Below the pieces are notes generated by a model. That model made no database searches and was not told where the DNA came from. It saw only the letters and a program-made list of their open reading frames with translations. Shown here piece by piece: positions 1,658 to 36,008 of a stretch of DNA of 36,008 nucleotides (positions are counted from its first letter, which is position 1; each line of letters begins with the position of its first letter). Source of the DNA: a virus; UHGV virus genome UHGV-0138922, one strand, 5' to 3'. Made by a program: the position numbers and the translations under genes.

Positions 1658-1677
1658 ACGCGGTAGGGGCTTTTTTG
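1641..1677 (+). terminator. Rho-independent terminator
   Basis: GCCCCTA...TAGGGGC stem followed by TTTTTTGTTT. Confidence 0.6.
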
Positions 1678-1689
1678 TTTGGAAATGGT

Positions 1690-3369
1690 ATGAAAACTAA
1701 ACTGTATTCGTATATTCGCTTCTCGTCTATGCGTCAGAATGATGGTTCGAGTTATGAACGACAAATCAGGATGGCTAGAGAGATTGCGGCAAAGTATGAC
1801 CTTGAACTGGTAAATGATTATCAGGATCTGGGTGTATCTGCGTTTAAGGGTGCTAACTCTAAAACAGGGGCGCTATCTCGTTTCCTTGATGCAATTGGTA
1901 GATCCGTTCCTGTTGGTAGCTGGCTATTCATCGAAAACTTGGACCGTTTATCCCGTGCCGATATTGTCAGTGCGCAGGAGTTATTCCTTTCAATCATCCG
2001 TAGGGGAATAACCATTGTTACTGGCATGGATAACAAGATCTACTCGCTGGATACTGTTACCGCTAATCCGATGGACCTGATGTTCTCCATCCTTTTATTC
2101 ATCCGTGGTAATGAGGAAAGCCAGACTAAGCGCAATCGTACTAACTCAAGCGCACTGATTAAGATTAAAGCCCATCAAGAAAATCCCCAGAATCCGGCAG
2201 TGGCAATCGAGGAAGTTGGAAAGAATATGTGGTGGACGGATACCACTTCCGGTTATGTGCTGCCTCATCCGGTGTACTTCCCTGTTGTTCAGGAGATTGT
2301 GGAATTACGGAAGAATGGACGTTCAACCGCCGAAATACTGGATCACCTTAACGAGACTTATACACCGCCACCAGCGGTTAGCAACAAGAAGCATTCAAAA
2401 TGGTCACGGGCAATGGTTGAAAGGTTGTTTCATACCCGCGCTTTGATTGGTATCAAGGAGGTCTCTGTAGATGGCGTTAACTATGAGTTAAAGGATTATT
2501 ACCCTCGTGTTATTGATGACCCTACGTTCTATCACCTTAAGAAAAATATTGGTGCTAGAGCATGGAACTTCGGAGACAAGGAAGAAGTTAAACCGATCCC
2601 CCTGCTTAGTGGTATTGGCCTATTGAAATGTGATCATTGCGGTTGCGCTATGGTTAAAGTGAAGGGAACGAACAAACGTTCTGACCAGTATCGTTATACA
2701 TGTGATGCGACCCGTTCACGTAGACTTGATTGCGAGCATCCAAACTGGAGTTTTCGAGGTGATCAATTAGAGAAAGCTGTATTGCAATTGCTGGCTGATA
2801 AAATCTGGATTGCTGAGGACAAGGCTAATCCGGTTCCGGCGTTGAAAGTACAGGTTGATGAAATATCACGCAAGATTGATAACCTGATTGCCCTTTCTGC
2901 TATGACAGGAGCAACGAAGGAGCTAGCCGATCAGATTACTACCCTCAATAGCGAGCGTGAAACACTCTACAATCAGATCAAGATGGCAGAAGAGGAAATG
3001 TATTCTGTTGACTCTCAAGGCTGGGAGAAGCTCGCAGAATTTGATTTAGAAGATGTTTACAACGAGGAACGACTAAAGGTCCGGTTTAAGATTAAGCAAG
3101 CTCTAAAGCGGATCGGGTGTAGCAGGATTGACAGAAACAAAAACTTGTTTGTACTGGAATACATCGATGGAAAGACCCAGAGAGTTGTAATAGAAAATTC
3201 AAGAGGAACGAGGAAAGGACAAATCTTTGTCGATTTGAAAACTATCAATGATAGGCAGATTCTGGAGAGTAACGGGCTTGTTCTGCATCCATGTTTAGAC
3301 ATGCTGACAGATAAGAACTGGAAACCAGAAGAGGAAATACCAGGTCCATTACAGGAATTTGGAATTTAA
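1690..3369 (+). CDS. Large serine recombinase (phage integrase)
   Basis: N-terminal resolvase-type catalytic motif YSYIRFSSMRQ; long recombinase domain; Cys-rich zinc-ribbon (CDHCGC...YRYTCD...C) and C-terminal coiled coil; ATG 1690 is the likely start (track start 1675 is TTG). Confidence 0.88.
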   Translation: MKTKLYSYIRFSSMRQNDGSSYERQIRMAREIAAKYDLELVNDYQDLGVSAFKGANSKTGALSRFLDAIGRSVPVGSWLFIENLDRLSRADIVSAQELFLSIIRRGITIVTGMDNKIYSLDTVTANPMDLMFSILLFIRGNEESQTKRNRTNSSALIKIKAHQENPQNPAVAIEEVGKNMWWTDTTSGYVLPHPVYFPVVQEIVELRKNGRSTAEILDHLNETYTPPPAVSNKKHSKWSRAMVERLFHTRALIGIKEVSVDGVNYELKDYYPRVIDDPTFYHLKKNIGARAWNFGDKEEVKPIPLLSGIGLLKCDHCGCAMVKVKGTNKRSDQYRYTCDATRSRRLDCEHPNWSFRGDQLEKAVLQLLADKIWIAEDKANPVPALKVQVDEISRKIDNLIALSAMTGATKELADQITTLNSERETLYNQIKMAEEEMYSVDSQGWEKLAEFDLEDVYNEERLKVRFKIKQALKRIGCSRIDRNKNLFVLEYIDGKTQRVVIENSRGTRKGQIFVDLKTINDRQILESNGLVLHPCLDMLTDKNWKPEEEIPGPLQEFGI

Positions 3370-4771: not shown

Positions 4772-5341
4772 ATGATTCCAGTAATGGCTAAAGATATTGT
4801 TTTTACTCCTAAATCCTCCCGTGCTGTAACTCCATCGGCATTAGAACAACGCATTCTGACTCACATCAAAGAGAAGGACTTACCGTTAGTCTTTCATGGC
4901 TTTCTGGGTGAGTTTAAAGGGCTTCATTCAAGAATTGCTCTTACATGTACCCGATGCGGCAATAGAGCCGACAAATCAGCTACCAACCTGCTTAATGAAG
5001 GTAAACGCTGTGCATGTCTCAAAAGTGATTACTTTCAATATAAAGCGGGTGTGCCTTATCTCTATGTAATGAAATCAGGGGATATTGGTAAATTTGGTGT
5101 TACAAAGTCAATCATCAAGCGACGCATTAATCTGGGTGTACGCAATCCCGGTCATAACTTTGATATTGTCTTTGCTGGTGAAATGCCATCAATGAAACAT
5201 GCTTTAGCCACTGAAAGAGCAATAAAGAGATTACTGGATGTGGGTATAGGCGGGATTGAATACGGCAAAACTGAAACATTCCACTACTGCAATAAATCAC
5301 TAAACAATATAAAGAATATTGCAAGTGTGGAGTGGAACTAA
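4772..5341 (+). CDS. Zn-ribbon + GIY-YIG nuclease-like protein (189 aa), paralog of 3442-4617
   Basis: CxxC...CxC then PYLYVMKSGDIGKFGVTKS...R...E (GIY-YIG spacing); collinear similarity to the 391-aa protein. Confidence 0.65.
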   Translation: MIPVMAKDIVFTPKSSRAVTPSALEQRILTHIKEKDLPLVFHGFLGEFKGLHSRIALTCTRCGNRADKSATNLLNEGKRCACLKSDYFQYKAGVPYLYVMKSGDIGKFGVTKSIIKRRINLGVRNPGHNFDIVFAGEMPSMKHALATERAIKRLLDVGIGGIEYGKTETFHYCNKSLNNIKNIASVEWN

Positions 5342-6831
5342 TGCAAGATATTAAAATTCATTTTCAAGATTACAGTTTCGTTAAGGTTGATTGCTCTCCT
5401 TCTATCGGAATGGAATTAAGAGATTATTTCTCGTTTGAGGTTGAAGGGGCTAGATTTAGCCCCCGTTACAAGTATTCCGGCTGGGATGGAAAGATAAGAC
5501 TGTTTACGCATGAAAATACCTTGCCAATCGGATTATTGAAAACATTAGGTATCTTCGCTAAAAACATGGGCTATAGCGTATGGGTAGACCCCAGATTGCT
5601 TGAGAAGGAAGATGTAACCAAAGAATCAATTGATTCATGGATTGACTCTTTAGAAGTGTATTCCGGTAGCAATAAAATCAATCCTTACTGGTATCAAAGG
5701 GAGGCAGTATTTCAGGGTATCCATAATCGCCGTAGAATGCTGGTTCTTCCTACCAGTGCCGGAAAGTCATTGATTGCTTGTATGCTGTCTCGTTGGTACT
5801 TAGAGAACTACACCGGAAAGATTCTAATCATTGTCCCGACTACATCGCTGGTGGTTCAAATGAGGGATGATTTTGTCGATTATAGGCTATTCCCTTATGA
5901 AGCAATCCATACAATGATGAGTGGTAGCGGGAAACATCCGGGAGACAGGTTAATCACTGTTTCAACCTGGCAATCAGCTTGCAAGATGCCTCCTGAATGG
6001 TTCCGACAATATGGAATGTTGATAGTTGATGAATCACATCGCGCTAGTGCAAAGAATATCACCAATATCATCAACGGAATGAATCACTGTCAATTCAAGA
6101 TTGGTATGACTGGTTCCCCGAAAGAATCAAAGTGCCATCTCATGCAGTATGTCGGGTTGTTCGGTGATATTCAGAAGATAGTAGCAATCAAGCAATTGAT
6201 GGATGACGGACAAGTTACCCAGCTTAAAATTAATGCTCTCTTCCTTAAGTACAAAGATGAAGAATGTAAAGCAATGCGGGGCAAAGATTATCAGGAAGAG
6301 ATTAAATTCATCAATGCTCATAAGGTAAGGAATAAACTGGCTTGTAATTTGGCCTTAAAACTCGCCAGGAAGCAAGAAAACGTATTTTTGATGTTCCGGT
6401 ACTCTAAGCATGGAAAAATGCTTTATAATGCATTACAGCGCGTTTACGATAAGGTTTATTACGTTTCCAGTGAGATTACCACCGCCGAACGCGATGCCTT
6501 AAAGAAAATGGCTGAAAATGAGAAAGGATTGATTGTAGTTGCTAGCTATGGTGTTTTCTCTACTGGCGTTTCAATTAAGAATCTTCATCATGTTATTTTT
6601 GGTCATCCGGTGAAAGAATCGACCATTGTCCGGCAATCAATAGGACGTGCTCTTAGGAAACATGGTAGTAAGGCAATTGCTGTTGTATGGGATTTGATAG
6701 ATGTGATTTGTTCGAAAGACAAGAAAGGAAAATATACACGCAAGAATTATGCTTTAACTCATGGCCTCCAGAGAATCAATACTTACATATCAGATCGCTT
6801 CGAATATGCCACGAAAACAATCGAGATTTAA
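5341..6831 (+). CDS. uvsW: T4 UvsW-like SF2 (DExH) DNA helicase
   Basis: Walker A LPTSAGKS, motif II LIVDESH, motif III MTGSP, motif VI IGRALRKHG; N-terminal region MQDIKIHFQDYSFVKVDC...WDGKIRLF resembles the UvsW N-terminus as I recall it; ATG overlaps the upstream stop (TAATG); track alternative start is GTG 5332. Confidence 0.82.
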   Translation: MQDIKIHFQDYSFVKVDCSPSIGMELRDYFSFEVEGARFSPRYKYSGWDGKIRLFTHENTLPIGLLKTLGIFAKNMGYSVWVDPRLLEKEDVTKESIDSWIDSLEVYSGSNKINPYWYQREAVFQGIHNRRRMLVLPTSAGKSLIACMLSRWYLENYTGKILIIVPTTSLVVQMRDDFVDYRLFPYEAIHTMMSGSGKHPGDRLITVSTWQSACKMPPEWFRQYGMLIVDESHRASAKNITNIINGMNHCQFKIGMTGSPKESKCHLMQYVGLFGDIQKIVAIKQLMDDGQVTQLKINALFLKYKDEECKAMRGKDYQEEIKFINAHKVRNKLACNLALKLARKQENVFLMFRYSKHGKMLYNALQRVYDKVYYVSSEITTAERDALKKMAENEKGLIVVASYGVFSTGVSIKNLHHVIFGHPVKESTIVRQSIGRALRKHGSKAIAVVWDLIDVICSKDKKGKYTRKNYALTHGLQRINTYISDRFEYATKTIEI

Positions 6832-6836
6832 TAAAT

Positions 6837-6854
6837 AGGGGCTTTAATGCCCCT
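6837..6854 (+). terminator. Hairpin (AGGGGC-tttaat-GCCCCT), weak terminator or attenuator
   Basis: Stem-loop immediately after the helicase stop, followed by a T-rich tract. Confidence 0.35.
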
Positions 6855-6876
6855 TTATTCTACGGAGATTAAAAAA

Positions 6877-7128
6877 ATGATTAGCTTTAAACGTTTTTTG
6901 GTTGAGGCCGCGATCGACGGTTTCATGAGTAAGATTTATTCTTGTAATACTATCGAGGGATTAAATGAACTTGAGGCATATTATGAGAAGCGCAAGAAAG
7001 AAACAGAATTGAAACCTGCTGATGATATTTCGATCCGTGATGCCATCGCCGGACGACGCAAGCAACTGGAAGCGGAGAACGAGCCGGAAGACGATTTTTC
7101 TATCATCAATTTGTGCCAGATAAAATAA
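6877..7128 (+). CDS. Small acidic protein (83 aa)
   Basis: GGAG about 10 nt upstream of ATG 6877 (track start 6847 lacks a ribosome-binding site); followed by a strong terminator. Confidence 0.5.
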   Translation: MISFKRFLVEAAIDGFMSKIYSCNTIEGLNELEAYYEKRKKETELKPADDISIRDAIAGRRKQLEAENEPEDDFSIINLCQIK

Positions 7129-23609: not shown

Positions 23610-25613
23610 TCATTCAGCGCCAATCTGAAGAACTTTCAGAGCTTCCGGCTGAGTAACAACATAATCCAGATCTACCCAGATACGCGGAACGATAGCAGAC
23701 TGTGCACGGTAGGTAGTGTCGTCCATATCCAATTCCAGACCGCCCCACTCACCGATAGTGATGCCGGAGAAGTCACCCAGAACGATGTGATCTGCCGGAA
23801 TAACACCAGAAGTAACTACTTCGTAACCAGCCAGTTTGCCGTTTTCGATGATATAACCGGAAACGCCGTTATCTTTCAGGGTAGATTCCAGTTCGGCAGC
23901 AGTTGCACCGCTCATCGCAAACTTGATCGCCTGAGCAGGAACGCCAGCGTCGGTCAGTTTAGCAATTTCTTTCAGGAAATCTTTGTAAGAGAAAGCAGCT
24001 TTCTTCTCAACGCGGCTAGCGTCTACCAGTTGCTTAACCAGACCAGCCGGACCACGAGCATTTTCTTTGTCAGACAGAATCAGTTGTTCCAGTTTGATAC
24101 GAACAGCTTTGTTAATGTGGTCAGTGATCAGGGTAGCGATACCCGGAACGGTTTTCAGAGACTGACGGCTAATCGGGTTGCCACCAGCGAAAGTCTTAGG
24201 AGACAGTTTCACGTTCGCAAATTCAGCTTTGCTTTCCGGCGCAGCACCGTTTTCATCAACGAAGCCGAAAGCATCAACGCTGGATTTAGTCATTTTTGGA
24301 ATAGCAGTCGGAGAAGTCAAGCCACTATAAACAGTCACACCCAGACGACCCAGAACAGATTCCGGCATCAGCATTTCGATGTAGGATTCAGTCATCAGTT
24401 TTTCGTCGGTGATAGCAGTCAGATCGGCTTTGGTGTTACCAGCAGCAGCAGCACGCATAGCAGCAGCCGGAACGAATACAGAGCCACCACGAGCAGCACG
24501 ACCACGCTGCATAGTTGCAGTAGCAGCCATTGCAGAAAACTCGGCTTCGTTAGCACCCAGAGCTTCACCATCTACCAGAGAGCGAATTACGTTGTTCAGG
24601 TCAAAAGTTTTTTCCATTTTAGAGTCCTTAATTTGTTCGTTATTACGTTGAGCATTGGTAATGTTATTTAGTGCCTTAGTGCGGAATGCTTCCGGCGTCA
24701 TATCTTTAACTGCCAATGCGCGTTTTAATTCTTCGTCGTCAATATTTAGTTCGCGTGCAATTTCGCGAATTTCTAATTCGTCTTCTTCGGAACGTTCAGC
24801 CACTTCAATTTTTTCTTCTTCAACCGGAGCAGCTTCACGTTCTTCTGTCATTTCTTCTTCTTCCCGAACAGTTCCACGATCATCATCAGAACTTTCAGAA
24901 TGTTCAGCGTCTTTTCCGTCTTCGAGATTTTCATTTTCTTCATTCTCTTCAACTTGGCGCTCTTGAGTTTCTTCTACTTCCGGTTCTTTATTTTCTTCTA
25001 CCGGAGTTTCTTCAACCTGAGCGACTTCTTTTTCTTCGTCTTTAACTTGTTCGATTTGTTCTTTAGTCATATCGCGTTTAGCCTCCAAATTAACTGTGAT
25101 AGTATTTAGAGAGCGATTTAGACCGACAGAATCGTCTGCGGGCACAGACACCCATGAAATCTCATGAGGAATCCACTTAGTAACAATCAATTGTCCTTTA
25201 GCGTAATCGATGTGATATTCTTTAATGTCATAACCGACAGAAATTTTTTCCATCGTACCTTCAATGACTTTATTACGAATATCATTAGCCAAAGTACCAT
25301 GCTTAGAGAATTTAACAGTAGCACGGCCTACTTTATCCGCATCGATTCGAGCGTTACAGACAACACCAATGTGATTATCGAAATTATGATTGAACAGCAA
25401 CGGAGCGTTATTATTCAGGCGAGACAGATCAACCGCTTCCGGTGTATGTAACAGAATTTCATCTAATACCACCATCTCTTGATTTTGCTCATCCCAGAAT
25501 TGGCGCTGGTAAGGCTGTTCACTGGAGAAAGCAATTTCAAATTCGTATTGATCGTTATGCCCTTCGTTAATAACTCCACCGTAACCGTTAAGATCGCGGC
25601 GAAATTTAAGCAT
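23610..25613 (-). CDS. Prohead protease - acidic scaffold-like linker - HK97-fold major capsid protein (single 667-aa ORF)
   Basis: N-terminus resembles HK97-type prohead protease (LLFNHNFDNHIG, ISVGYD, HEISWVSVPAD); ~150-aa Glu-rich linker; C-terminal ~330 aa HK97-like capsid domain; AAGGTGA ribosome-binding site. Confidence 0.8.
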   Translation of the reverse strand: MLKFRRDLNGYGGVINEGHNDQYEFEIAFSSEQPYQRQFWDEQNQEMVVLDEILLHTPEAVDLSRLNNNAPLLFNHNFDNHIGVVCNARIDADKVGRATVKFSKHGTLANDIRNKVIEGTMEKISVGYDIKEYHIDYAKGQLIVTKWIPHEISWVSVPADDSVGLNRSLNTITVNLEAKRDMTKEQIEQVKDEEKEVAQVEETPVEENKEPEVEETQERQVEENEENENLEDGKDAEHSESSDDDRGTVREEEEMTEEREAAPVEEEKIEVAERSEEDELEIREIARELNIDDEELKRALAVKDMTPEAFRTKALNNITNAQRNNEQIKDSKMEKTFDLNNVIRSLVDGEALGANEAEFSAMAATATMQRGRAARGGSVFVPAAAMRAAAAGNTKADLTAITDEKLMTESYIEMLMPESVLGRLGVTVYSGLTSPTAIPKMTKSSVDAFGFVDENGAAPESKAEFANVKLSPKTFAGGNPISRQSLKTVPGIATLITDHINKAVRIKLEQLILSDKENARGPAGLVKQLVDASRVEKKAAFSYKDFLKEIAKLTDAGVPAQAIKFAMSGATAAELESTLKDNGVSGYIIENGKLAGYEVVTSGVIPADHIVLGDFSGITIGEWGGLELDMDDTTYRAQSAIVPRIWVDLDYVVTQPEALKVLQIGAE

Positions 25614-31604: not shown

Positions 31605-31937
31605 TTACCAATCGATTTCTACCTGATCTTCTTCATAATAAGGAATCGCATATTCATAACGCCAGTTTTCGATGATTTCACGTTCTTCATTAGTAAGAAG
31701 GTGATTGCTAACTGGAGTCGCATTGTGATTACCAGCTTCGAATTGTTCGCGAACTTCCAGCATTGCATGAATACCAGTTAAGGACATCAGATCAAACGGA
31801 ACATGCATACTACGGGAGATTGTTTCACGGGATACGCCCCAATCATTTTCTACATGGCTAGGGCTTACAGAAACGGTTTTGCCGGAGATTTTAACAGTCC
31901 AGTCATACAGGGATTTAGTGATGGTAAATTCTTTCAT
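31605..31937 (-). CDS. Hypothetical early protein (110 aa)
   Basis: First ORF downstream of a consensus sigma70 promoter; AGAGGATG ribosome-binding site. Confidence 0.55.
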   Translation of the reverse strand: MKEFTITKSLYDWTVKISGKTVSVSPSHVENDWGVSRETISRSMHVPFDLMSLTGIHAMLEVREQFEAGNHNATPVSNHLLTNEEREIIENWRYEYAIPYYEEDQVEIDW

Positions 31938-31993: not shown

Positions 31994-32022
31994 ATCATAA
32001 AAAAGTCAGAAATATTTGTCAA
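31994..32022 (-). promoter_or_regulatory. Strong sigma70 promoter (TTGACA-N17-TATGAT)
   Basis: Minus-strand TTGACAAATATTTCTGACTTTTTTATGAT, about 50 nt upstream of gene 31937. Confidence 0.65.
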
Positions 32023-32056
32023 TACCCCTTGACAAGTTGCCAAAGGGTTGACCTCA

Positions 32057-32530
32057 TTAGAGCATTTCTAAGCCATCGTGATAGCCGTAGAAGCCATTCT
32101 GAGAAGAGAAACAGATAGGAGCATAATCATCATCTTCGTCGTCTTCATCTTCGTCATAATCGTTTTTAGGGGCTTCCTGAGCGGTTTCTTTACCGTAGTT
32201 AAACATGGCTTCGTCAATCTCTTGAAGGGTTACGAAACTACCCAAATCCACATCACCGAAACGGACTTCGAACGGCAGATCATCACGAACAATAATTGCT
32301 GGTAGATTCTGGTACTTCGCACGATCTTGATCGGTGAAGCAGTTAACTACGATAGTAGGTTTCTTGTTCTTACAAAACGAATACCAAGCACTAGAAAAGC
32401 TGGATTCATCGGAATCAAAAAGGATGTTATAACCACGTTCAACGAAGATCTTCATTAAACGGTCATTGTGAAAGCTATCTGCATCCAGACCTAACAGGAT
32501 GAAAGGAGTAGTAGTCTTGTTCTTGTACAT
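32057..32530 (-). CDS. Hypothetical protein with strongly acidic C-terminal tail (157 aa)
   Basis: AGAGGA ribosome-binding site before ATG 32530 (track start 32566 lacks one); DYDEDEDDEDDDY tail. Confidence 0.55.
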   Translation of the reverse strand: MYKNKTTTPFILLGLDADSFHNDRLMKIFVERGYNILFDSDESSFSSAWYSFCKNKKPTIVVNCFTDQDRAKYQNLPAIIVRDDLPFEVRFGDVDLGSFVTLQEIDEAMFNYGKETAQEAPKNDYDEDEDDEDDDYAPICFSSQNGFYGYHDGLEML

Positions 32531-32570
32531 AGTTGGTAATCCTCTAAAAGAAAGTGAATCAAACAAATTA

Positions 32571-32846
32571 CACTAGTATTTATAACGAGAATTTTTTATC
32601 TATTTGGAAGTGATTGGTATTCAGTCTGGCTAAAGCCATCCTTCATGTACTAGAACAAGAATTATACAAAACAAATTTTCTTCTATAATAATATTATATA
32701 ATAGTTCTTCGTTTTGATTAAATGATCATCAAACCAGTATTGACGCTCTCCAGAGCGTCTGCGAAGCAATCTATTACCTTCTAGTATTATCAAAGTGATT
32801 CCAACTACCTTTCTAGTAACCAGTTAGTAATCATCTAGTATTAAAT
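32571..32846. promoter_or_regulatory. Cluster of five CTAG-containing sites ([A/T]CTAGTA[A/T]), candidate operators
   Basis: ACTAGTAT 32571, TACTAGAA ~32650, TCTAGTATTA 32781, TCTAGTAAC 32812, TCTAGTATTA 32835; the first overlaps a candidate -10 for gene 32530. Confidence 0.4.
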
Positions 32847-32869
32847 CCCTTTCTAAGAAAATCCTTTCA

Positions 32870-33000
32870 AAAGTGAGTGAACGCCGTAGGCGTGAACGTG
32901 AGCGAAGCGAACTATCCAATCCCTTTCGAATCCTGCTTGCAGGTCTTAGAAGGTGTTGGTGGGCGCTACGCGCACGGCTACGCCGTATTCTTTTTGTGAG
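32870..33000. other. GC-rich hairpin-dense non-coding element (possible small RNA or recombination/packaging site)
   Basis: ACGCCGTAGGCGT, GCGCTACGCGC and ACGGCTACGCCGT hairpins; direct repeats GTGAGCGAAGCGAAC / GTGAGAGAAAGCGAAC; local GC far above surroundings. Confidence 0.35.
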
Positions 33001-33118
33001 ATCTTTCTTGAACGCTAGTGAGAGAAAGCGAACAAAAAGGAGAACGTTAGTTCGAGTTTTATATTCTATGGTCTGTGTGGTCAAATGCTTTTGCAAATCA
33101 TACACTTACGTGATTGAA

Positions 33119-33240
33119 GTGTAGGGTTAGTGTAGGTGTGTAGGTTTCATAGTGTAGGTTTGGACATGTTCTAGTGTAGGTTTACTGGCTAGTGTAGTGT
33201 AGGCCAATCCCTTTCATGTGTAGGTTTGTAGTGTAGGTTT
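33119..33240 (+). repeat. Iteron array: 8 direct copies of GTGTAGG(TTT)
   Basis: Copies start at 33119, 33130, 33138, 33152, 33174, 33197, 33218, 33231. Confidence 0.8.
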
Positions 33241-33330
33241 TTCATCAAAAATTTTGATAAAAAATTCTTGTATATTATTTAACCAAAAAATCATCAAAAA
33301 TCGCTGTAAGTTAATGATTTAAAAGGAATT
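33241..33330. promoter_or_regulatory. AT-rich tract with ATCAAAAATTTTGAT palindrome and repeated ATCAAAAAT half-sites
   Basis: Perfect 15-bp palindrome at 33244-33258; half-site copies near 33292 and 33395. Confidence 0.55.
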
Positions 33331-33354
33331 GTCAAAAGGTCACCGTGCTATAAT
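33326..33354 (+). promoter_or_regulatory. Promoter with extended -10 (TGcTATAAT)
   Basis: TG at 33346-47, TATAAT at 33349-54; weak -35 GAATTG/TTGTCA. Confidence 0.55.
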
Positions 33355-33434
33355 AGGTTATAAAGGTTGATAATCCTGATCAGCCGTTTTCACACAAAAA
33401 TTTTGATAGTCATTTCTCGCCTAGATCATGGGTA

Positions 33435-33463
33435 TTGACAATAGTCAAGAACTATTTTATACT
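33435..33463 (+). promoter_or_regulatory. Sigma70 promoter (TTGACA-N17-TATACT)
   Basis: Hexamers read directly; about 340 nt leader to gene 33806. Confidence 0.6.
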
Positions 33464-33805
33464 TTTTCTCACTGGTGGGGGTTGAAATTTTCAAAACAAT
33501 CCCCATATAGATGATAGGCAAGAATTTCTCTTGTATAAATACATGCATGAAAATGATTGTTCACTTCTGAAATCTCCAGATTCACTGTTAATTCATACAG
33601 CACTGGTTAGATATACAGTGCTTTTTCGGTTGAATAATGTACGAATTGATTAATTATTAATCTTCTCTTTAGCAATTCGTGCTCCCACTGATCGGATATA
33701 CAGTAGTTTTACAGGGTTTTTCGAAAATCATTTTATAAATAGATATGTCGAGAGCGAAAAGCTCTTTTTAAAGTTTTCATTATTCCACAATTGAGGATTC
33801 TACTT

Positions 33806-33985
33806 ATGGCTAGACCTGTTAAATTTACCCGTGAAATGATTGTTGATATTGCTAAACGCTTTTATGGTGACACTGAACGAGGCGGTGAGAACTTCTTTAA
33901 GAAGGAAGGAATTGATAGAAGCGGATTCTACAAACTAATGAAGAAATACGAGATTCAAGTAAAGATTAACGTTCAAGTTTGTTAA
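33806..33985 (+). CDS. Small HTH-like protein (59 aa), paralog family member
   Basis: MARPVKFTREMIVDIAKRFYGD...EGIDRSGFYKLMKKYEI; GAGGA ribosome-binding site before ATG 33806. Confidence 0.55.
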   Translation: MARPVKFTREMIVDIAKRFYGDTERGGENFFKKEGIDRSGFYKLMKKYEIQVKINVQVC

Positions 33986-34028
33986 TCACCTTTCACTGAG
34001 AATTATATGATGGCTTTAAAAATAAAAA

Positions 34029-34057
34029 AGCCTCCCTGTTGGCGCAAGGAGGCTTTT
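34029..34057 (+). terminator. Rho-independent terminator
   Basis: AGCCTCC...GGAGGCT stem followed by TTTT. Confidence 0.55.
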
Positions 34058-34103
34058 GGTATGAAACATTAAAAACTAACACAGAGTATTCAGGAGTATT
34101 TAT

Positions 34104-35129
34104 ATGAAAAATTCTAAGCGCATCACCTTCAACCTGTTCATCAAATCCAATGGCAAACTGAACATTACTGTTATGGAAGGTAAAGCAAGCAAACAAGACA
34201 AATCCTTTGAAGTAGTATCCGGTAAGACTCTGACCGAAATGCGTCAGAATGCTGGCATCAAAGACGGTGCTGAATGGCAGATCACTAACCGTTTCGACAA
34301 ACGTCACGTTAAACCTACACTGGTAGAAGGTGAATCCGTTTATTGCTTCGCTCGTGCTGTTAAAGCTGATGAGACTTACTATCTCGCTGTTGTTAAAACT
34401 GCTTCCGGCTTCCGTGCTGTAATGCATCACAAGAGCAAGCGTAACGAATACGGTGTAGAGACCCAGGAAGTTGCAAAACGCTTCCGTACTGTTGCTACTG
34501 AATCCACTGTAAAGGATGTTTCTGGTACTGTTAACACCGCTAAAGGTGGTTCCTTCTACAACCATGCATTACAGGTTACTTCCTCCTTCTTCTGCAAAAA
34601 AGAAGCACAGAAAGAAGTTGCTCCGGTGGTAGTTGAAGAAGTTAAAGAAGAAGTTGCAGTGGTTGAATCTTCCGAAGTTGAAGCACTGAAAGCTGAACTG
34701 ACAGCAGTTAAAGCGGAAAATGCTTCCCTGAAAGAAGAAAACGCATCTCTGAAAGCAGAACTGGCAGCACAGGAAACCACTTTCGAAGCAGCGGTTGAAG
34801 TTGAAGCAGTTGAAGAAAAATCCATTGATGAAGAACTGGAAGAACTCCTTAACTATCGCTGGGGTAACGGTGAAGTAGAAGAACAGGAAAACGAGAAAGA
34901 AGCTGATCCGGTAGTAGTTCCGGTTGAAGTTGAAGCAGAATCCGCACCAGTTACTAACTTTGAAACCCTGCGCAATAACTTTATGGCTAAATTCAAAACT
35001 ACTTGGGAAGATACCGAAGAAGAACAAGAAGATATTGAAGTAAACGAAGACGAGATCCGAGAAGCACAGATGGCACTGCATGACGCTATCTATGACACTA
35101 ACTACAGCGCCTACGCATACGCAGCTTAA
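34104..35129 (+). CDS. Acidic coiled-coil protein (341 aa) with host-optimised codon usage; function unknown
   Basis: CAGGAG ribosome-binding site; codons dominated by CGT/CTG/GGT/TTC/AAC/GAA unlike neighbouring phage genes; C-terminal half Glu/Ala/Val-rich heptads. Confidence 0.65.
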   Translation: MKNSKRITFNLFIKSNGKLNITVMEGKASKQDKSFEVVSGKTLTEMRQNAGIKDGAEWQITNRFDKRHVKPTLVEGESVYCFARAVKADETYYLAVVKTASGFRAVMHHKSKRNEYGVETQEVAKRFRTVATESTVKDVSGTVNTAKGGSFYNHALQVTSSFFCKKEAQKEVAPVVVEEVKEEVAVVESSEVEALKAELTAVKAENASLKEENASLKAELAAQETTFEAAVEVEAVEEKSIDEELEELLNYRWGNGEVEEQENEKEADPVVVPVEVEAESAPVTNFETLRNNFMAKFKTTWEDTEEEQEDIEVNEDEIREAQMALHDAIYDTNYSAYAYAA

Positions 35130-35143
35130 TCGAGGGTGAATCT

Positions 35144-35386
35144 ATGATGAATCAAAACAAAGAATTTCTGGGTAATCTGATGTTAGAAATTACCAAAATG
35201 AAAGAGCGTATGGCAAAGATGGAATCAGAGATTAAATCACTTAAAGCTGATAACGCCGCATTACGAAAGAGTTTAAAACTGATTGATGAGACTAATGCGG
35301 TTATGATGGATCATGTATTCCCTGAATGGCGAAATGAAACTAAACCTACACAACATAAGAAACCTACACTTCGGATTGTTGCATAA
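35144..35386 (+). CDS. Small leucine-zipper-like protein with basic C-terminus (80 aa)
   Basis: GAGGGTG ribosome-binding site; the C-terminal KPTQHKKPTL is encoded by two inverted iteron copies. Confidence 0.55.
   Translation: MMNQNKEFLGNLMLEITKMKERMAKMESEIKSLKADNAALRKSLKLIDETNAVMMDHVFPEWRNETKPTQHKKPTLRIVA
35342..35369 (-). repeat. Two inverted iteron copies (AAACCTACAC on plus strand)
   Basis: Exact reverse complements of GTGTAGGTTT at ~35342 and ~35360; another at 34311-34320; TAGGTTAGGTTT at ~35421. Confidence 0.7.
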
Positions 35387-35391
35387 AAAAA

Positions 35392-35415
35392 GGGAGTCCC
35401 ATTTAAGAGACTCCC
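35392..35415. terminator. Hairpin terminator (T-run on minus-strand side, A-run on plus)
   Basis: GGGAGTC-ccatttaaga-GACTCCC; minus-strand reading is followed by UUUUUUU. Confidence 0.5.
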
Positions 35416-35673
35416 TATAGTTAGGTTAGGTTTGCACAACAAAGATGAGGTTATAATGAACATAATGCTACATTATTCTTTAAAGCCAGAAAATAACCGC
35501 CCCTTTCGAGGCGGGAGGATTAATACTCAATCTATACTTGTTATGTTTTTATGATGTATAGATCACTGACTATGAAAACACTGTACTGGAGTTGTGTTTT
35601 ATGGCTTTTAATCGGGAATCCTCAAAGAAGATCCCCTGTTAATAACCATAAGGAGAAAAGGCAGATTACACTA

Positions 35674-35958
35674 TTATTTAGTACGCTTGAAAATGTGATT
35701 CAAAACGACAAACAGACAGTAAAACCAAAATGCGATTAACAACACATGAATTGATGAAGTCGGTTTAAAATCAAATAAGAACATCGCCAGACAATCCACC
35801 GTAAAGGAAATTACTTCGACAATCGCAAACAAACTAGCAATTCCACAAAACGCGCCTAAAAACAATTCCCAACGTTCTTTTTCATTGGTGGACAGTTTGA
35901 AAGCAGAAACGATAGAAAGAACAACGATGATCACGAGATAAGTTAAGAAAGTAGCCAT
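35674..35958 (-). CDS. Integral membrane protein (94 aa, about 3 predicted transmembrane helices)
   Basis: AGAGG ribosome-binding site before ATG 35958; hydrophobic segments LVIIVVLSIVSAF, FLGAFCGIASLFAIV, VLLIAFWFYCLFVVL. Confidence 0.5.
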   Translation of the reverse strand: MATFLTYLVIIVVLSIVSAFKLSTNEKERWELFLGAFCGIASLFAIVEVISFTVDCLAMFLFDFKPTSSIHVLLIAFWFYCLFVVLNHIFKRTK

Positions 35959-36008
35959 TAGTATTTTGCCTCTAGTTAGACAAACATCCTCTAAAAATTC
36001 AAATCAGA

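What the first reader, a model, noticed from the sequence alone, without database searches (positions are those of the whole stretch)
34104..35129. Acidic 341-aa protein with host-like highly-expressed codon usage behind two strong promoters
This gene uses CGT, CTG, GGT, TTC, AAC and ACC codons almost exclusively, unlike the AT-biased codons of neighbouring phage genes. It is preceded by an extended -10 promoter and a TTGACA-N17-TATACT promoter. It encodes a ~190-aa globular N-terminal part followed by a long Glu/Val/Ala-rich coiled-coil (EVEALKAELTAVKAENASLKEENASLKAELAA). It could be an abundant early protein such as a DNA mimic, anti-defence or host-takeover factor, or a recently acquired host-derived gene.
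Basis: partly seen in the sequence, partly recalled or inferred. Interest (0 to 1): 0.55.

Follow-up and report, generated by a model that had tools for sequence, protein, structure and literature searches.

The report
Abundant iteron-matched DNA-binding prophage protein
This gene is real and is built for ribosomal-protein-level expression; comparison with related prophages suggests it encodes the protein that recognises a block of repeated DNA sites next to it, most likely to start phage DNA replication, and it is not a DNA mimic or a gene borrowed from the host.

Summary
The 341-aa ORF (34104-35129, +) is real. Its N-terminal half is under strong purifying selection. Its codon adaptation index is 0.75 against weights taken from 30 E. 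coli ribosomal/EF genes. That is above the median of that reference set (0.68) and above the capsid (0.62) and tail-tube (0.65) genes. Relatives only 22-48% identical keep the bias (0.65-0.77). Both promoters exist but lie 640-750 bp upstream, before a 59-aa ORF and two hairpins.

The window is a ~37-kb prophage integrated in ycdX. It has no isolated relative and no recognisable replication initiator or repressor. No sequence or fold search gave a real match, and the AlphaFold models were poor.

In 34 related loci this slot always holds a 313-377-aa protein. Each has a variable N-terminal domain (at least 5 types), a leucine zipper and an acidic linker. Four of six tail types end in -AA. Each N-terminal type goes with its own iteron array 0.7-1 kb upstream (33/33 concordant). 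Conserved, independently recombining DNA lies between the two.

Best reading: an abundant, probably ClpXP-labile, iteron-specific DNA-binding protein (~0.65), most likely the origin-binding initiator (~0.35-0.4). Host origin and small terminase are rejected; DNA mimicry is unsupported.

The parts
33117..33240 (+). Iteron array: 8 direct copies of (A)GTGTAGG(TTT), with start-to-start spacing of 11, 8, 14, 22, 23, 21 and 13 bp.
   Evidence: The 12-mer with up to 2 mismatches occurs 14 times in the window against 2.9 +/- 1.8 in shuffles. The array is replaced by a different iteron type wherever the N-terminal type of the protein differs.
33241..33305 (.). AT-rich stretch (about 85-88% A+T) with the palindrome ATCAAAAATTTTGAT; the palindrome recurs at 33395-33409.
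   Evidence: The AT-rich stretch is not conserved in the other cassette types.
33346..33354 (+). Extended -10 promoter-like site, TGcTATAAT.
   Evidence: Read from the sequence. It lies in a stretch absent from L014 and L015.
33435..33463 (+). Promoter TTGACA-N17-TATACT. Its -35 hexamer overlaps the palindrome TTGACAATAGTCAA (33435-33448), a likely operator.
   Evidence: 11 of 12 matches. It is conserved about 371 nt before the 59-aa ORF in most related loci, as TTGACA-NN-TGTCAA.
33470..33775 (+). Leader of about 300 nt. It has two copies of the hairpin CACTGGTTAGATATACAGTG + T-run (33601-33625 and 33686-33710), then a hairpin + T-run at 33750-33769.
   Evidence: The elements are conserved across cassette types. 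The function is unknown; attenuation or antitermination is my inference.
33806..33985 (+). 59-aa ORF, first gene of the operon (MARPVKFTRE...EGIDRSGFYKLMKKY). It looks like a small HTH protein.
   Evidence: The HTH reading is my own resemblance judgement; there is no HMM hit. Its sequence types cross-cut the iteron types.
34026..34057 (.). Conserved hairpin between the 59-aa ORF and the 341-aa gene. The strong T-tract is on the minus strand; only 2-4 T follow it on the plus strand.
   Evidence: Compensatory stem changes occur in L004, L015 and L017.
34092..34096 (+). Shine-Dalgarno sequence AGGAG, 7 nt before the ATG.
34104..34670 (+). Codons 1-189: basic (pI 9.4), beta-rich N-terminal domain, the proposed iteron-recognition module.
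   Evidence: dN/dS is 0.00-0.03 among E. coli variants. Eleven of its 59 invariant positions are K/R. Its type is concordant with the iteron type in 33/33 loci. AlphaFold confidence is low (pLDDT about 50).
34671..34805 (+). Codons 190-234: leucine-zipper coiled coil (EVEALKAELTAVKAENASLKEENASLKAELAAQ).
   Evidence: Predicted helix 190-234. Only zipper-type HMM noise matched. Heptad-sized indels occur between variants. A zipper is present in all five N-terminal types.
34806..35111 (+). Codons 235-336: acidic Glu/Val/Pro-rich linker and short C-terminal helices (...LHDAIYDTNYS).
   Evidence: The C-terminal half (residues 190-341) has pI 4.1, dN/dS about 0.42, and carries all the indels. The LHDxxYxTN(Y/F)S motif is shared with G-type proteins.
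35112..35126 (+). Last five codons, YAYAA: an ssrA-like C-terminus (the E. coli ssrA tag ends YALAA).
   Evidence: the AY repeat number varies but the end is always -AA. Four of six unrelated tail types end in -AA. A terminal Ala-Ala is the key feature of ClpXP C-terminal degrons (PMC10862746). Degradation has not been tested.
34311..34320 (-). Exact iteron 10-mer inside the gene. It encodes Lys-Pro-Thr using the otherwise avoided codons CCT and ACA.
   Evidence: It is conserved in all E. coli T-type loci examined and absent from L017.
35144..35386 (+). 80-aa coiled-coil ORF, the last gene of the operon, ending KKPTLRIVA. It contains two exact iteron 10-mers on the minus strand (35342-35351 and 35360-35369).
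   Evidence: The second gene differs between cassette types or is missing, but keeps the C-terminal (K/R)PTLRxV(A/G).
35391..35514 (-). Two minus-strand terminators (35416-35391 and 35514-35497). They end the convergent operon (small terminase, then the 94-aa membrane protein) and mark the right border of the 59/341/80 operon.

Best explanation
The gene encodes a very highly expressed, modular, sequence-specific DNA-binding protein. It belongs to the core of an uncharacterised family of prophages that integrate in ycdX in E. coli, Shigella, Salmonella and Edwardsiella.

Shown here:
- The ORF is real and its N-terminal half is under strong purifying selection.
- Codon adaptation is at ribosomal-protein level, and every divergent relative keeps it.
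- Two physically separate variable DNA cassettes, the N-terminal part of this gene and an iteron array 0.7-1 kb upstream, always change together. The DNA between them recombines independently.

Inferred:
- The basic N-terminal domain binds the phased iterons at 33117-33240 and the extra copies at 34311, 35342 and 35360.
- The leucine zipper makes dimers or higher oligomers, so many bound copies can build a nucleoprotein complex.
- The acidic linker and C-terminal helices recruit a partner.
- The YAYAA end makes the protein a ClpXP substrate, so its level follows transcription from the operator-controlled promoter at 33435-33463.

Most likely role: the phage's origin-binding replication initiator, an analogue of the lambda O-some or of P1/F Rep-iteron replicons. 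The prophage has no other candidate initiator, and in the E. coli T type the iterons flank the gene in inverted orientation, as in those replicons.

My probabilities: iteron-specific DNA binding about 0.65; replication initiator about 0.35-0.4. The confidence value given for this entry (0.4) is for the whole statement, initiator role included.
For: Expression.
- CAI is 0.752 against an empirical E. coli reference. That is higher than the capsid and tail-tube genes, with z = 10.3 against the back-translation null.
- Homologues score 0.65-0.77 in all five N-terminal types.
- The Shine-Dalgarno sequence is strong, and the near-consensus promoter with a palindrome is conserved.

Real protein.
- dN/dS is 0.00-0.15 in the N-terminal half and about 0.42 in the C-terminal half.

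Core gene.
- All 34 loci anchored on the 59-aa ORF carry a 313-377-aa ORF with the same architecture in this slot.

Co-variation.
- N-type T goes with GTGTAGG (14 loci), C with GTGCAGG (2), G with TTCAGGGGCAA (15) and type 5 with CGGGGA (2). That is 33/33 concordant.
- 59-aa type 4 sits between three different matched pairs, and 59-aa type 2 between two.
- blastn shows two disjoint non-homologous cassettes. In T against type 5 they are separated by 815 bp at 83% identity; in T against G, by 345 bp at 94.5%.

Iteron properties.
- All copies are direct repeats, 5-13 per array, spaced 11, 21-23 or 41 bp apart.
- Extra exact copies lie on the minus strand at 34311, 35342 and 35360. They are conserved in the E. 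coli T-type loci and are encoded with non-preferred codons.
- G-type loci have one lone exact 11-mer 2.5 kb away.

DNA-binding character.
- The N-terminal domain has pI 9.1-10.0 in four types (7.0-8.5 in the others) and many invariant K/R residues.

No other initiator.
- Pfam and PHROGs over the whole prophage find only a UvsW-type helicase with UvsW.1, an endonuclease-like pair and a serine recombinase.

Degron.
- Four of six tail types end in -AA, and YAYAA differs from ssrA's YALAA at one position.
Against: - No homology or fold match to any initiator or DNA-binding family was found, and the AlphaFold models are poor (pLDDT about 50). DNA binding is therefore inferred only from co-variation and charge.
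- An AT-rich unwinding element next to the iterons occurs only in the window type, and there are no consistent DnaA boxes.
- Known initiators are usually made at low levels, so ribosomal-protein-like codon adaptation is unexplained.
- The independent recombinant combinations are few (about 7), because many loci are near-identical.
- G-type proteins end ...SYCQ and type 4 ends ...MFA, so the degron is not universal.
- The extra T-type sites are absent from L017.
- Type 4 (L030) has no clear iteron array.
- Two hairpins lie between the promoter and the gene, so expression from that promoter is assumed, not shown.
Confidence: 0.4

Rival explanations
1. It is the specificity-determining transcription regulator of the switch region, either an immunity repressor or an activator. 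It binds the iterons between the divergent early promoters, and the cassette types correspond to hetero-immune phage types.
For: The same co-variation applies. The array lies between a leftward operon (169 aa, 110 aa, Rha) and the rightward promoters. No CI-like repressor was recognised anywhere in the prophage. In L014, L017 and the G-type loci, single iteron-like sites sit next to or inside a promoter.
Against: In the window and most other types the array ends more than 100 bp upstream of the -35 hexamer and does not overlap a promoter. The conserved operator-like palindrome at the -35 is the same in all cassette types, so it cannot carry type specificity. Five to thirteen phased direct repeats are more typical of origins or centromere-like sites than of operators; that comparison is my own knowledge. 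Very high expression is unusual for a repressor.
Confidence: 0.2
2. This is the first reader's idea: an abundant early host-takeover or anti-defence protein whose acidic half acts as a DNA mimic or decoy, like Ocr or ArdA.
For: Very high predicted expression. The C-terminal half (residues 190-341) has 43 acidic residues among 152. That half evolves faster, with indels (dN/dS about 0.42).
Against: There is no hit in PADLOC, Pfam, PHROGs or NCBIfam. The acidic part is Glu/Val/Pro-rich and modelled as disordered, not as a folded mimic. The conserved, constrained part is the basic N-terminal domain. The gene is a core, position-fixed gene whose N-terminus tracks a DNA repeat, which a decoy would not need.
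Confidence: 0.1
3. It is an RNA-binding regulator. It recognises the repeat as RNA (AAACCUACAC) in a leftward leader transcript and in its own mRNA, and autoregulates the way T4 gp32 and RegA do.
For: All three extra T-type sites are oriented so that the rightward mRNA carries the same motif that a leftward transcript of the array would carry. The lone G-type site has the matching orientation too. Abundance suits a stoichiometric RNA binder.
Against: No leftward promoter was found to the right of the array; the best leftward promoter-like site lies to its left (32815-32786). The orientation agreement has roughly a 1 in 16 chance of arising at random. The 11/22-bp phasing fits binding to one face of duplex DNA.
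Confidence: 0.07
4. It is a single-strand DNA-binding or recombination protein working with the phage UvsW helicase. It would resemble gp32 or gp2.5: abundant, with an acidic tail.
For: High codon adaptation and a basic core followed by an acidic tail. The predicted order beta-beta-beta-alpha-beta-beta is compatible with an OB fold. UvsW and UvsW.1 are present in the prophage.
Confidence: 0.05
5. It is an ordinary virion, scaffold or decoration protein, or the small terminase.
For: Its CAI is as high as or higher than that of the capsid and tail tube. An N-terminal DNA-binding domain followed by a coiled coil and a C-terminal tail is also the layout of small terminases. In the first four loci the terminase large subunit appeared to co-vary with it.
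Against: A separate Nu1-like small terminase sits at the right end of the prophage (phrog_57, E = 2e-15). The terminase co-variation breaks in L020. The gene lies outside the late operon, in the control region. There is no structural-protein HMM or fold match.
Confidence: 0.03

Closest known systems
Lambda O protein with ori-lambda iterons (the lambdoid replication module O-P)
   Same: An N-terminal domain that determines iteron specificity. Initiator type and iteron type are exchanged together among related phages. The second gene of the module varies. The protein is unstable through ClpXP. The lambda facts are from my own knowledge. The co-variation, the variable second gene and the -AA end were observed here.
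   Different: No sequence match to Pfam Phage_rep_O or to any other family. The iterons lie upstream of the operon, not inside the gene. A leucine zipper and a long acidic linker are present. Codon adaptation is extreme. The putative degron is C-terminal, whereas lambda O is recognised near its N-terminus.
Iteron replicons of P1 (oriR-repA-incA) and mini-F (incB-repE-incC)
   Same: Phased direct repeats of about 11/22 bp lie upstream of the gene, and further copies lie downstream in the opposite orientation. This was seen here for the E. coli T type. The P1 and F layouts are from my own knowledge.
   Different: Those Rep proteins are winged-helix proteins made in small, rate-limiting amounts. 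No Rep HMM matches here, the predicted N-terminal domain is beta-rich, and predicted expression is very high. This element is an integrated prophage, not a plasmid.
SaPI / PICI Rep-ori specificity pairs
   Same: Matched Rep and iteron types that differ between related elements (my own knowledge), as with the five types here.
   Different: SaPI Rep is a helicase. This protein has no NTPase motif or helicase HMM.
Phage phi29 p6, T4 gp32 and T7 gp2.5 (very abundant early DNA-binding proteins with acidic tails)
   Same: Predicted abundance, a basic DNA-binding part followed by an acidic C-terminal part, and multimeric nucleoprotein complexes. The properties of these known proteins are from my own knowledge.
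   Different: Those proteins bind without strict sequence specificity. Here the specificity cassettes argue for site-specific binding. No homology was detected.
T7 Ocr / ArdA DNA mimics
   Same: Acidic, probably abundant and early.
   Different: No homology. The acidic region is predicted to be disordered. The constrained part is basic, and the gene is tied to a DNA repeat.

Membership tests
Highly expressed E. coli-adapted genes (codon adaptation) | CAI in the range of ribosomal-protein and elongation-factor genes, clearly above the genomic background. | tested here: met
   0.752 against a reference median of 0.683, ordinary host genes at 0.378 and window genes at 0.423 +/- 0.094. Expression itself was not measured.
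Lambda O-type replication initiators | Sequence membership (Pfam Phage_rep_O or a related HMM). | tested here: not met
   No hit in Pfam, PHROGs or NCBIfam for any of the five N-terminal types.
Lambda O-type replication initiators | Iterons whose sequence type matches the initiator's DNA-binding domain type. | tested here: met
   33/33 loci are concordant across four iteron types, with independent recombination of the DNA in between. Binding itself was not tested.
Lambda O-type replication initiators | An AT-rich unwinding region adjacent to the iterons. | tested here: inconclusive
   Present in the window (33241-33305, 85-88% A+T) but not consistently in L017, L014, L039 or L048.
Lambda O-type replication initiators | Required for, and sufficient with its origin to drive, phage DNA replication. 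| not testable with these tools
   Needs a deletion with complementation and a test of autonomous replication.
Iteron-plasmid Rep proteins (RepA / RepE / pi, winged-helix) | Rep_3 / RepA-type HMM or a winged-helix fold. | tested here: not met
Iteron-plasmid Rep proteins (RepA / RepE / pi, winged-helix) | Direct repeats phased at about 11/22 bp, with further copies flanking the rep gene. | tested here: met
   Spacings are 11, 21-23 and 41 bp. Inverted copies at 34311, 35342 and 35360 are conserved in E. coli T-type loci. They are absent from L017.
SSB / gp32 / gp2.5-type ssDNA-binding proteins | An OB-fold core recognisable by HMM or by structure. | tested here: not met
DNA-mimic anti-restriction proteins (Ocr, ArdA) and other anti-defence families | Sequence or fold membership. 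| tested here: not met
   PADLOC gave only a coiled-coil-type hit to LmuB (E = 6e-4). No Pfam or PHROG match was found, and BFVD had no match with E <= 0.001.
Terminase small subunit | It is the only DNA-recognition subunit candidate, and it co-varies with the large terminase. | tested here: not met
   A separate Nu1-like small terminase is present (phrog_57, E = 2e-15). The TerL type and the tail type of the 341-aa homologue do not track each other in L020.
ClpXP substrates with an ssrA-like C-terminal degron | A C-terminal Ala-Ala with a non-polar or aromatic context. | tested here: met
   The end is YAYAA, against ssrA's YALAA. Four of six tail types end in -AA. The degron rules are from PMC10862746.
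ClpXP substrates with an ssrA-like C-terminal degron | ClpXP-dependent instability in vivo. | not testable with these tools
   Needs half-life measurements in wild type against clpX or clpP mutants, and with AA changed to DD.

The most novel reading that the evidence does not exclude
This would be a previously undescribed class of phage origin- or control-region organisers. Two apparently unrelated beta-rich DNA-recognition domains (the T/C/type-5 group and the G/type-4 group) are swapped as cassettes in step with iteron cassettes. Each is fused to a common leucine zipper, an acidic linker and, in four of six tail types, an ssrA-like tail. The protein is made at ribosomal-protein-like levels. 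It would serve as the sole replication initiator of a widespread enterobacterial prophage family that otherwise carries only a T4-type UvsW helicase.
Probability: 0.3. Interest if true: 0.65.

Novelty: new variant of a known kind. Interest (0 to 1): 0.5.

Why it matters
This prophage family is found in about 1% of complete E. coli genomes (63 of 5426 for this cassette type alone). It also occurs in Shigella, E. albertii, Salmonella and Edwardsiella. It has no studied relative and no recognisable replication or immunity genes.

If the proposal holds, the matched pairs of N-terminal domain and iteron array would form a natural set of orthogonal protein-DNA recognition pairs. That would identify the element's origin or switch. 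It would add DNA-binding folds with no known relatives. It would also pose a concrete question: why does a site-specific DNA-binding protein need ribosomal-protein-level synthesis together with a degradation tag?

If the proposal fails, the gene is still the most strongly codon-adapted gene of the phage, and its function would remain open.

Tried and rejected
1. Homology and fold searches all gave no real match.
   - Pfam, PHROGs, NCBIfam and PADLOC were run on the protein, its neighbours and all other N-terminal types.
   - PDB sequence and profile searches found nothing.
2. The phage collection had no DNA or protein match. Species-representative genomes had none either.
3. Small-terminase idea: rejected. 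It was prompted by an apparent iteron / 341-aa / TerL co-variation in four loci. A fifth locus broke that pattern, and a Nu1-like small terminase was found elsewhere in the prophage.
4. Leader-peptide idea (MMALKIKKPP... across the hairpin): rejected. The frame is broken by A-tract length changes, and the start codon is lost in L009 and L010.
5. Cis-antisense RNA from a minus-strand promoter at the gene start (TGAACA-N18-TAGAAT, 34140-34111): the -10 hexamer is not conserved in L014 or L015. The idea is left open only as an explanation for the minus-strand terminator.
6. Origin hallmarks: DnaA boxes, GATC clusters and an AT-rich element are not consistently present.
7. Rfam found nothing above chance in 32000-36008.
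8. Literature searches for a ycdX prophage, or for a UvsW plus serine-recombinase prophage, found nothing relevant.
9. hhalign between the two N-terminal groups showed no detectable relationship.
Full report
**1. The observation**

The ORF 34104-35129 (+) is present as described: ATG start, 341 codons, TAA stop. An AGGAG Shine-Dalgarno sequence lies 7 nt upstream of the ATG.

Codon usage is the classical E. coli high-expression set:
- GTT/GTA 36 of 38
- GCT/GCA 36 of 39
- ACT/ACC 22 of 24
- TCC/TCT 17 of 20
- CGT/CGC 11 of 12
- GGT/GGC 13 of 13
- CTG 12 of 16
- GAA 50 of 54
- TTC 11 of 14
- AAC 14 of 19

With Sharp-Li weights recalled from memory, the CAI is 0.696, the highest of 35 window genes. 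Because those weights came from memory, I rebuilt them from 30 MG1655 ribosomal-protein, EF-Tu, EF-G and rpoA genes. The results were:
- The gene scores 0.752.
- The reference genes themselves span 0.547-0.841, with a median of 0.683.
- Nineteen ordinary host genes have a median of 0.378.
- The other window genes average 0.423 +/- 0.094.
- The next highest are the tail tube (0.653) and the protease-capsid fusion (0.624).
- The gene lies 10.3 sd above back-translations of the same protein made with the phage's pooled codon usage.
- The bias is even along the whole gene.

G+C (43.5%) and GC3 (0.37) are those of the phage. This is selection among synonymous codons, not a foreign compositional patch.

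- Thr is mostly ACT rather than ACC.
- Both promoters exist (TGcTATAAT at 33346-33354; TTGACA-N17-TATACT at 33435-33463). They are 750 and 640 bp upstream, ahead of a ~300-nt leader, a hairpin with T-run (33750-33769), a 59-aa ORF (33806-33985) and a second conserved hairpin (34026-34057).

I found no convincing promoter directly in front of the gene. It is most simply the second gene of a 59-aa / 341-aa / 80-aa operon.

**2. Where it sits**

The window is almost a complete ~37-kb prophage. Near-identical DNA lies in the chromosomes of 63 of 5426 complete E. coli genomes. In strain FDAARGOS_1267 it splits ycdX.

From left to right the element carries:
- a large serine recombinase;
- an endonuclease-like pair;
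- a T4-type UvsW helicase with UvsW.1;
- an endolysin;
- tail, head, portal and lambda-GpA-type large terminase genes, all on the minus strand;
- a Rha-family regulator and two small unknown genes;
- a 1.2-kb non-coding control region;
- the 59/341/80 operon on the plus strand;
- a convergent operon with a 94-aa membrane protein and a Nu1-like small terminase, just beyond the right end of the window.

No CI-type repressor, replication initiator, primase or polymerase was recognised anywhere in the element. The closest isolated phage shares only 43% amino-acid identity in terminase and capsid. The 341-aa protein has no match at all in the phage collection.

**3. The protein**

- Residues 1-189 are basic (pI 9.4).
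- Residues 190-341 are very acidic (pI 4.1).
- AlphaFold predicts a beta-rich N-terminal domain, a long helix at 190-234 (a leucine zipper) and a disordered Glu/Val/Pro-rich linker, followed by short terminal helices. Confidence is low (mean pLDDT about 50) in both runs.
- Among E. coli variants the N-terminal half is almost invariant (dN/dS 0.00-0.03; 0.13 against a 77%-identical relative). The C-terminal half evolves faster (about 0.42) and carries every indel, including heptad-sized ones and changes in the number of terminal Ala-Tyr repeats.
- An exhaustive search of 1.8 billion representatives found only two other full-length clusters, 77% and 46% identical. Both occupy the same slot of related prophages in Salmonella and other enterobacterial assemblies. 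They too have the highest CAI of their loci (0.67-0.77).

A recent host origin is therefore excluded.

**4. The informative result: two cassettes that change together**

About 0.9 kb upstream of the gene lies an array of eight direct repeats, (A)GTGTAGG(TTT), at 33117-33240, with spacings of 11, 8, 14, 22, 23, 21 and 13 bp.

I anchored on the conserved 59-aa ORF and on the leftward 169-aa gene, and collected 34 related loci. All of them carry, in the same slot, a 313-377-aa ORF with a high CAI (0.65-0.77), a zipper near residues 190-235 and an acidic linker.

The N-terminal ~130-190 residues fall into at least five types that are 18-48% identical or less. By hhalign they form two groups with no detectable relationship to each other.

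Each N-terminal type has its own iteron:

| N-terminal type | Iteron | Copies per array | Loci |
|---|---|---|---|
| T | GTGTAGG | 6-9 | 14 |
| C | TAGTGCAGG | 5-6 | 2 |
| G | TTCAGGGGCAAA | 6-9 | 15 |
| Type 5 | (A)CGGGGA | 13 | 2 |

That is 33 of 33 concordant. The single type-4 locus, from Edwardsiella tarda, has no clear array.

The two variable parts are physically separate.
- Between a T and a type-5 locus, only a ~460-bp iteron block and the large ORF (with the second gene that follows it) are non-homologous. The 815 bp between them, holding the promoter, the leader and the 59-aa gene, is 83% identical.
- Between T and G, a 345-bp stretch at 94.5% identity separates the two cassettes.

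The 59-aa gene types cross-cut the pairs. One 59-aa type sits between T, G and type-5 pairs, and another sits between C and G pairs. Recombination therefore occurs in the conserved middle, yet no mismatched pair is seen. That is what direct recognition of the iterons by the N-terminal domain would predict.

The independent combinations are few (about seven), so this is strong circumstantial evidence, not proof.

Further exact T-type 10-mers lie on the minus strand at 34311 (inside the gene) and at 35342 and 35360 (end of the 80-aa gene).
- About 0.16 matches to the 12-mer with at most one mismatch would be expected by chance in the whole window (my estimate; one search gives the observed matches).
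- They are conserved in all E. coli T-type loci checked.
- They encode Lys-Pro-Thr with CCT and ACA, codons this gene otherwise avoids.
- G-type loci have a lone exact 11-mer 2.5 kb away.

**5. What it most likely does**

The best-supported statement is that this is an abundant, oligomerising, iteron-specific DNA-binding protein and a core gene of the phage.

For its role I favour origin-binding replication initiator, for these reasons:
- The phage has no other candidate initiator.
- Phased direct repeats at about 11/22 bp, in one orientation, are typical of origins.
- In the E. coli T type the gene is flanked by iterons in inverted orientation, as in the P1 and mini-F replicons (my own knowledge).
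- The module has a variable second gene: 80, 74, 286 or 333 aa, or none. Wherever present it ends (K/R)PTLRxV(A/G). This recalls the variable partner gene of lambdoid O-P modules.

The C-terminus YAYAA differs from the ssrA tag's YALAA at one position, and four of six otherwise unrelated tail types end in -AA. A terminal Ala-Ala is the key feature of ClpXP C-terminal degrons in E. coli, although not sufficient by itself (PMC10862746). Strong synthesis combined with rapid turnover would tie the protein's level tightly to transcription from the conserved promoter. The -35 hexamer of that promoter overlaps a palindrome (TTGACA-NN-TGTCAA) shared by all cassette types.

Points against the initiator reading:
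- The AT-rich stretch next to the array is specific to the window type.
- There are no DnaA boxes.
- Such high expression is not typical of initiators.
- G-type proteins lack the -AA end.

**6. Rivals**

- *Switch-region transcription regulator or immunity determinant.* It explains the same co-variation. However, the arrays mostly do not overlap promoters, and the operator-like palindrome does not vary with type.
- *RNA-binding regulator.* It is suggested by the orientation of the extra sites, but no promoter that would transcribe the array was found.
- *DNA mimic or anti-defence.* No positive support.
- *SSB-like.* Contradicted by the site-specific cassettes and the absence of any OB-fold match.
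- *Small terminase.* Rejected.
- *Structural protein.* No support.

**7. Novelty and verdict**

The codon-usage observation is correct and robust. The promoter statement is only loosely correct.

This appears to be a new, homology-less variant of a known kind of system: a phage specificity protein matched to an iteron array, most likely an initiator-origin pair. Its unusual features are:
- ribosomal-protein-level codon adaptation;
- two unrelated N-terminal recognition domains on a common zipper and acidic chassis;
- a probable ssrA-like degron.

Interest is moderate (0.5). The question is directly testable with gel shifts, cassette swaps, replication assays and stability measurements.

Noticed in passing
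window 1-36008; L001/L002 (NZ_CP069522.1 2920025-2957116): The window is nearly a whole ~37-kb prophage inserted in ycdX by a large serine recombinase (1675-3369). It has no isolated relative; the best is Escherichia phage DCP80, at 43% amino-acid identity in terminase and capsid.
   Followed up: partly
window 5332-7128: A T4-type UvsW helicase (UvsW_N, ResIII and Helicase_C domains) and a UvsW.1 gene sit in a temperate prophage with no recognisable initiator, primase, polymerase or CI-type repressor. In a relative, PGAP annotates a 55-aa 'UvsY' on the opposite strand at the equivalent place.
   Followed up: partly
L001:23096-23653 (just right of the window); L039:5409-5978: The Nu1-like small terminase (phrog_57, E = 2e-15) sits at the far right end of the prophage on the minus strand. 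It is about 6 kb from the large terminase and in a different operon.
   Followed up: partly
window 32875-32995: A GC-rich block is conserved across relatives. It has the hairpins ACGCCGTAGGCGT and ACGGCTACGCCGT followed by a T-run (terminator-like on the plus strand). It could be a small RNA or a protein-binding site. There is no Rfam match.
   Followed up: no
window 33470-33775: The long leader after the conserved promoter contains two copies of the hairpin CACTGGTTAGATATACAGTG + T-run (33601-33625 and 33686-33710), then a hairpin with T-run just before the 59-aa ORF. These elements are conserved even where the iteron cassette differs. This suggests attenuation or antitermination control.
   Followed up: partly
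window 34026-34057: This hairpin is conserved with compensatory changes in the relatives compared (T and C types), but its long T-tract is on the minus strand. It looks like a terminator for leftward transcription through the 341-aa gene. No conserved antisense promoter was found.
   Followed up: partly
window 32057-32566 and 31605-31937 (minus strand): The first two genes of the leftward operon also have high CAI (0.57 and 0.61). The 169-aa protein has an acidic tail with a conserved ...DDDDYAPxxFSS...GY......ML end and no known family.
   Followed up: no
window 35144-35386; L017:11040-11264; L015:11070-11930; L048:4814-5815: The gene after the 341-aa ORF differs completely between cassette types (80, 74, 286 or 333 aa; absent in the G type and type 4). 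It always ends (K/R)PTLR(I/L/V)V(A/G), an ssrA-variant-like non-polar C-terminus or a docking peptide.
   Followed up: partly
window 32780-32850: A second set of short repeats (TCTAGTA, 3-4 copies; 4 copies of a 23-mer in L052) lies near the best leftward promoter-like site (32815-32786). It is present in L052, which carries a different iteron type, and is a possible operator for a conserved regulator.
   Followed up: no
window 33993-34565 and 34569-35081 (minus strand): Long antisense ORFs of 190 and 170 aa lie opposite the gene. They are a by-product of its codon bias (few stop codons arise on the complementary strand), not genes.
   Followed up: no
window 23610-25613 (minus strand): The major capsid protein is a 667-aa fusion of a Peptidase_S78 prohead protease with an HK97-type capsid domain.
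   Followed up: no
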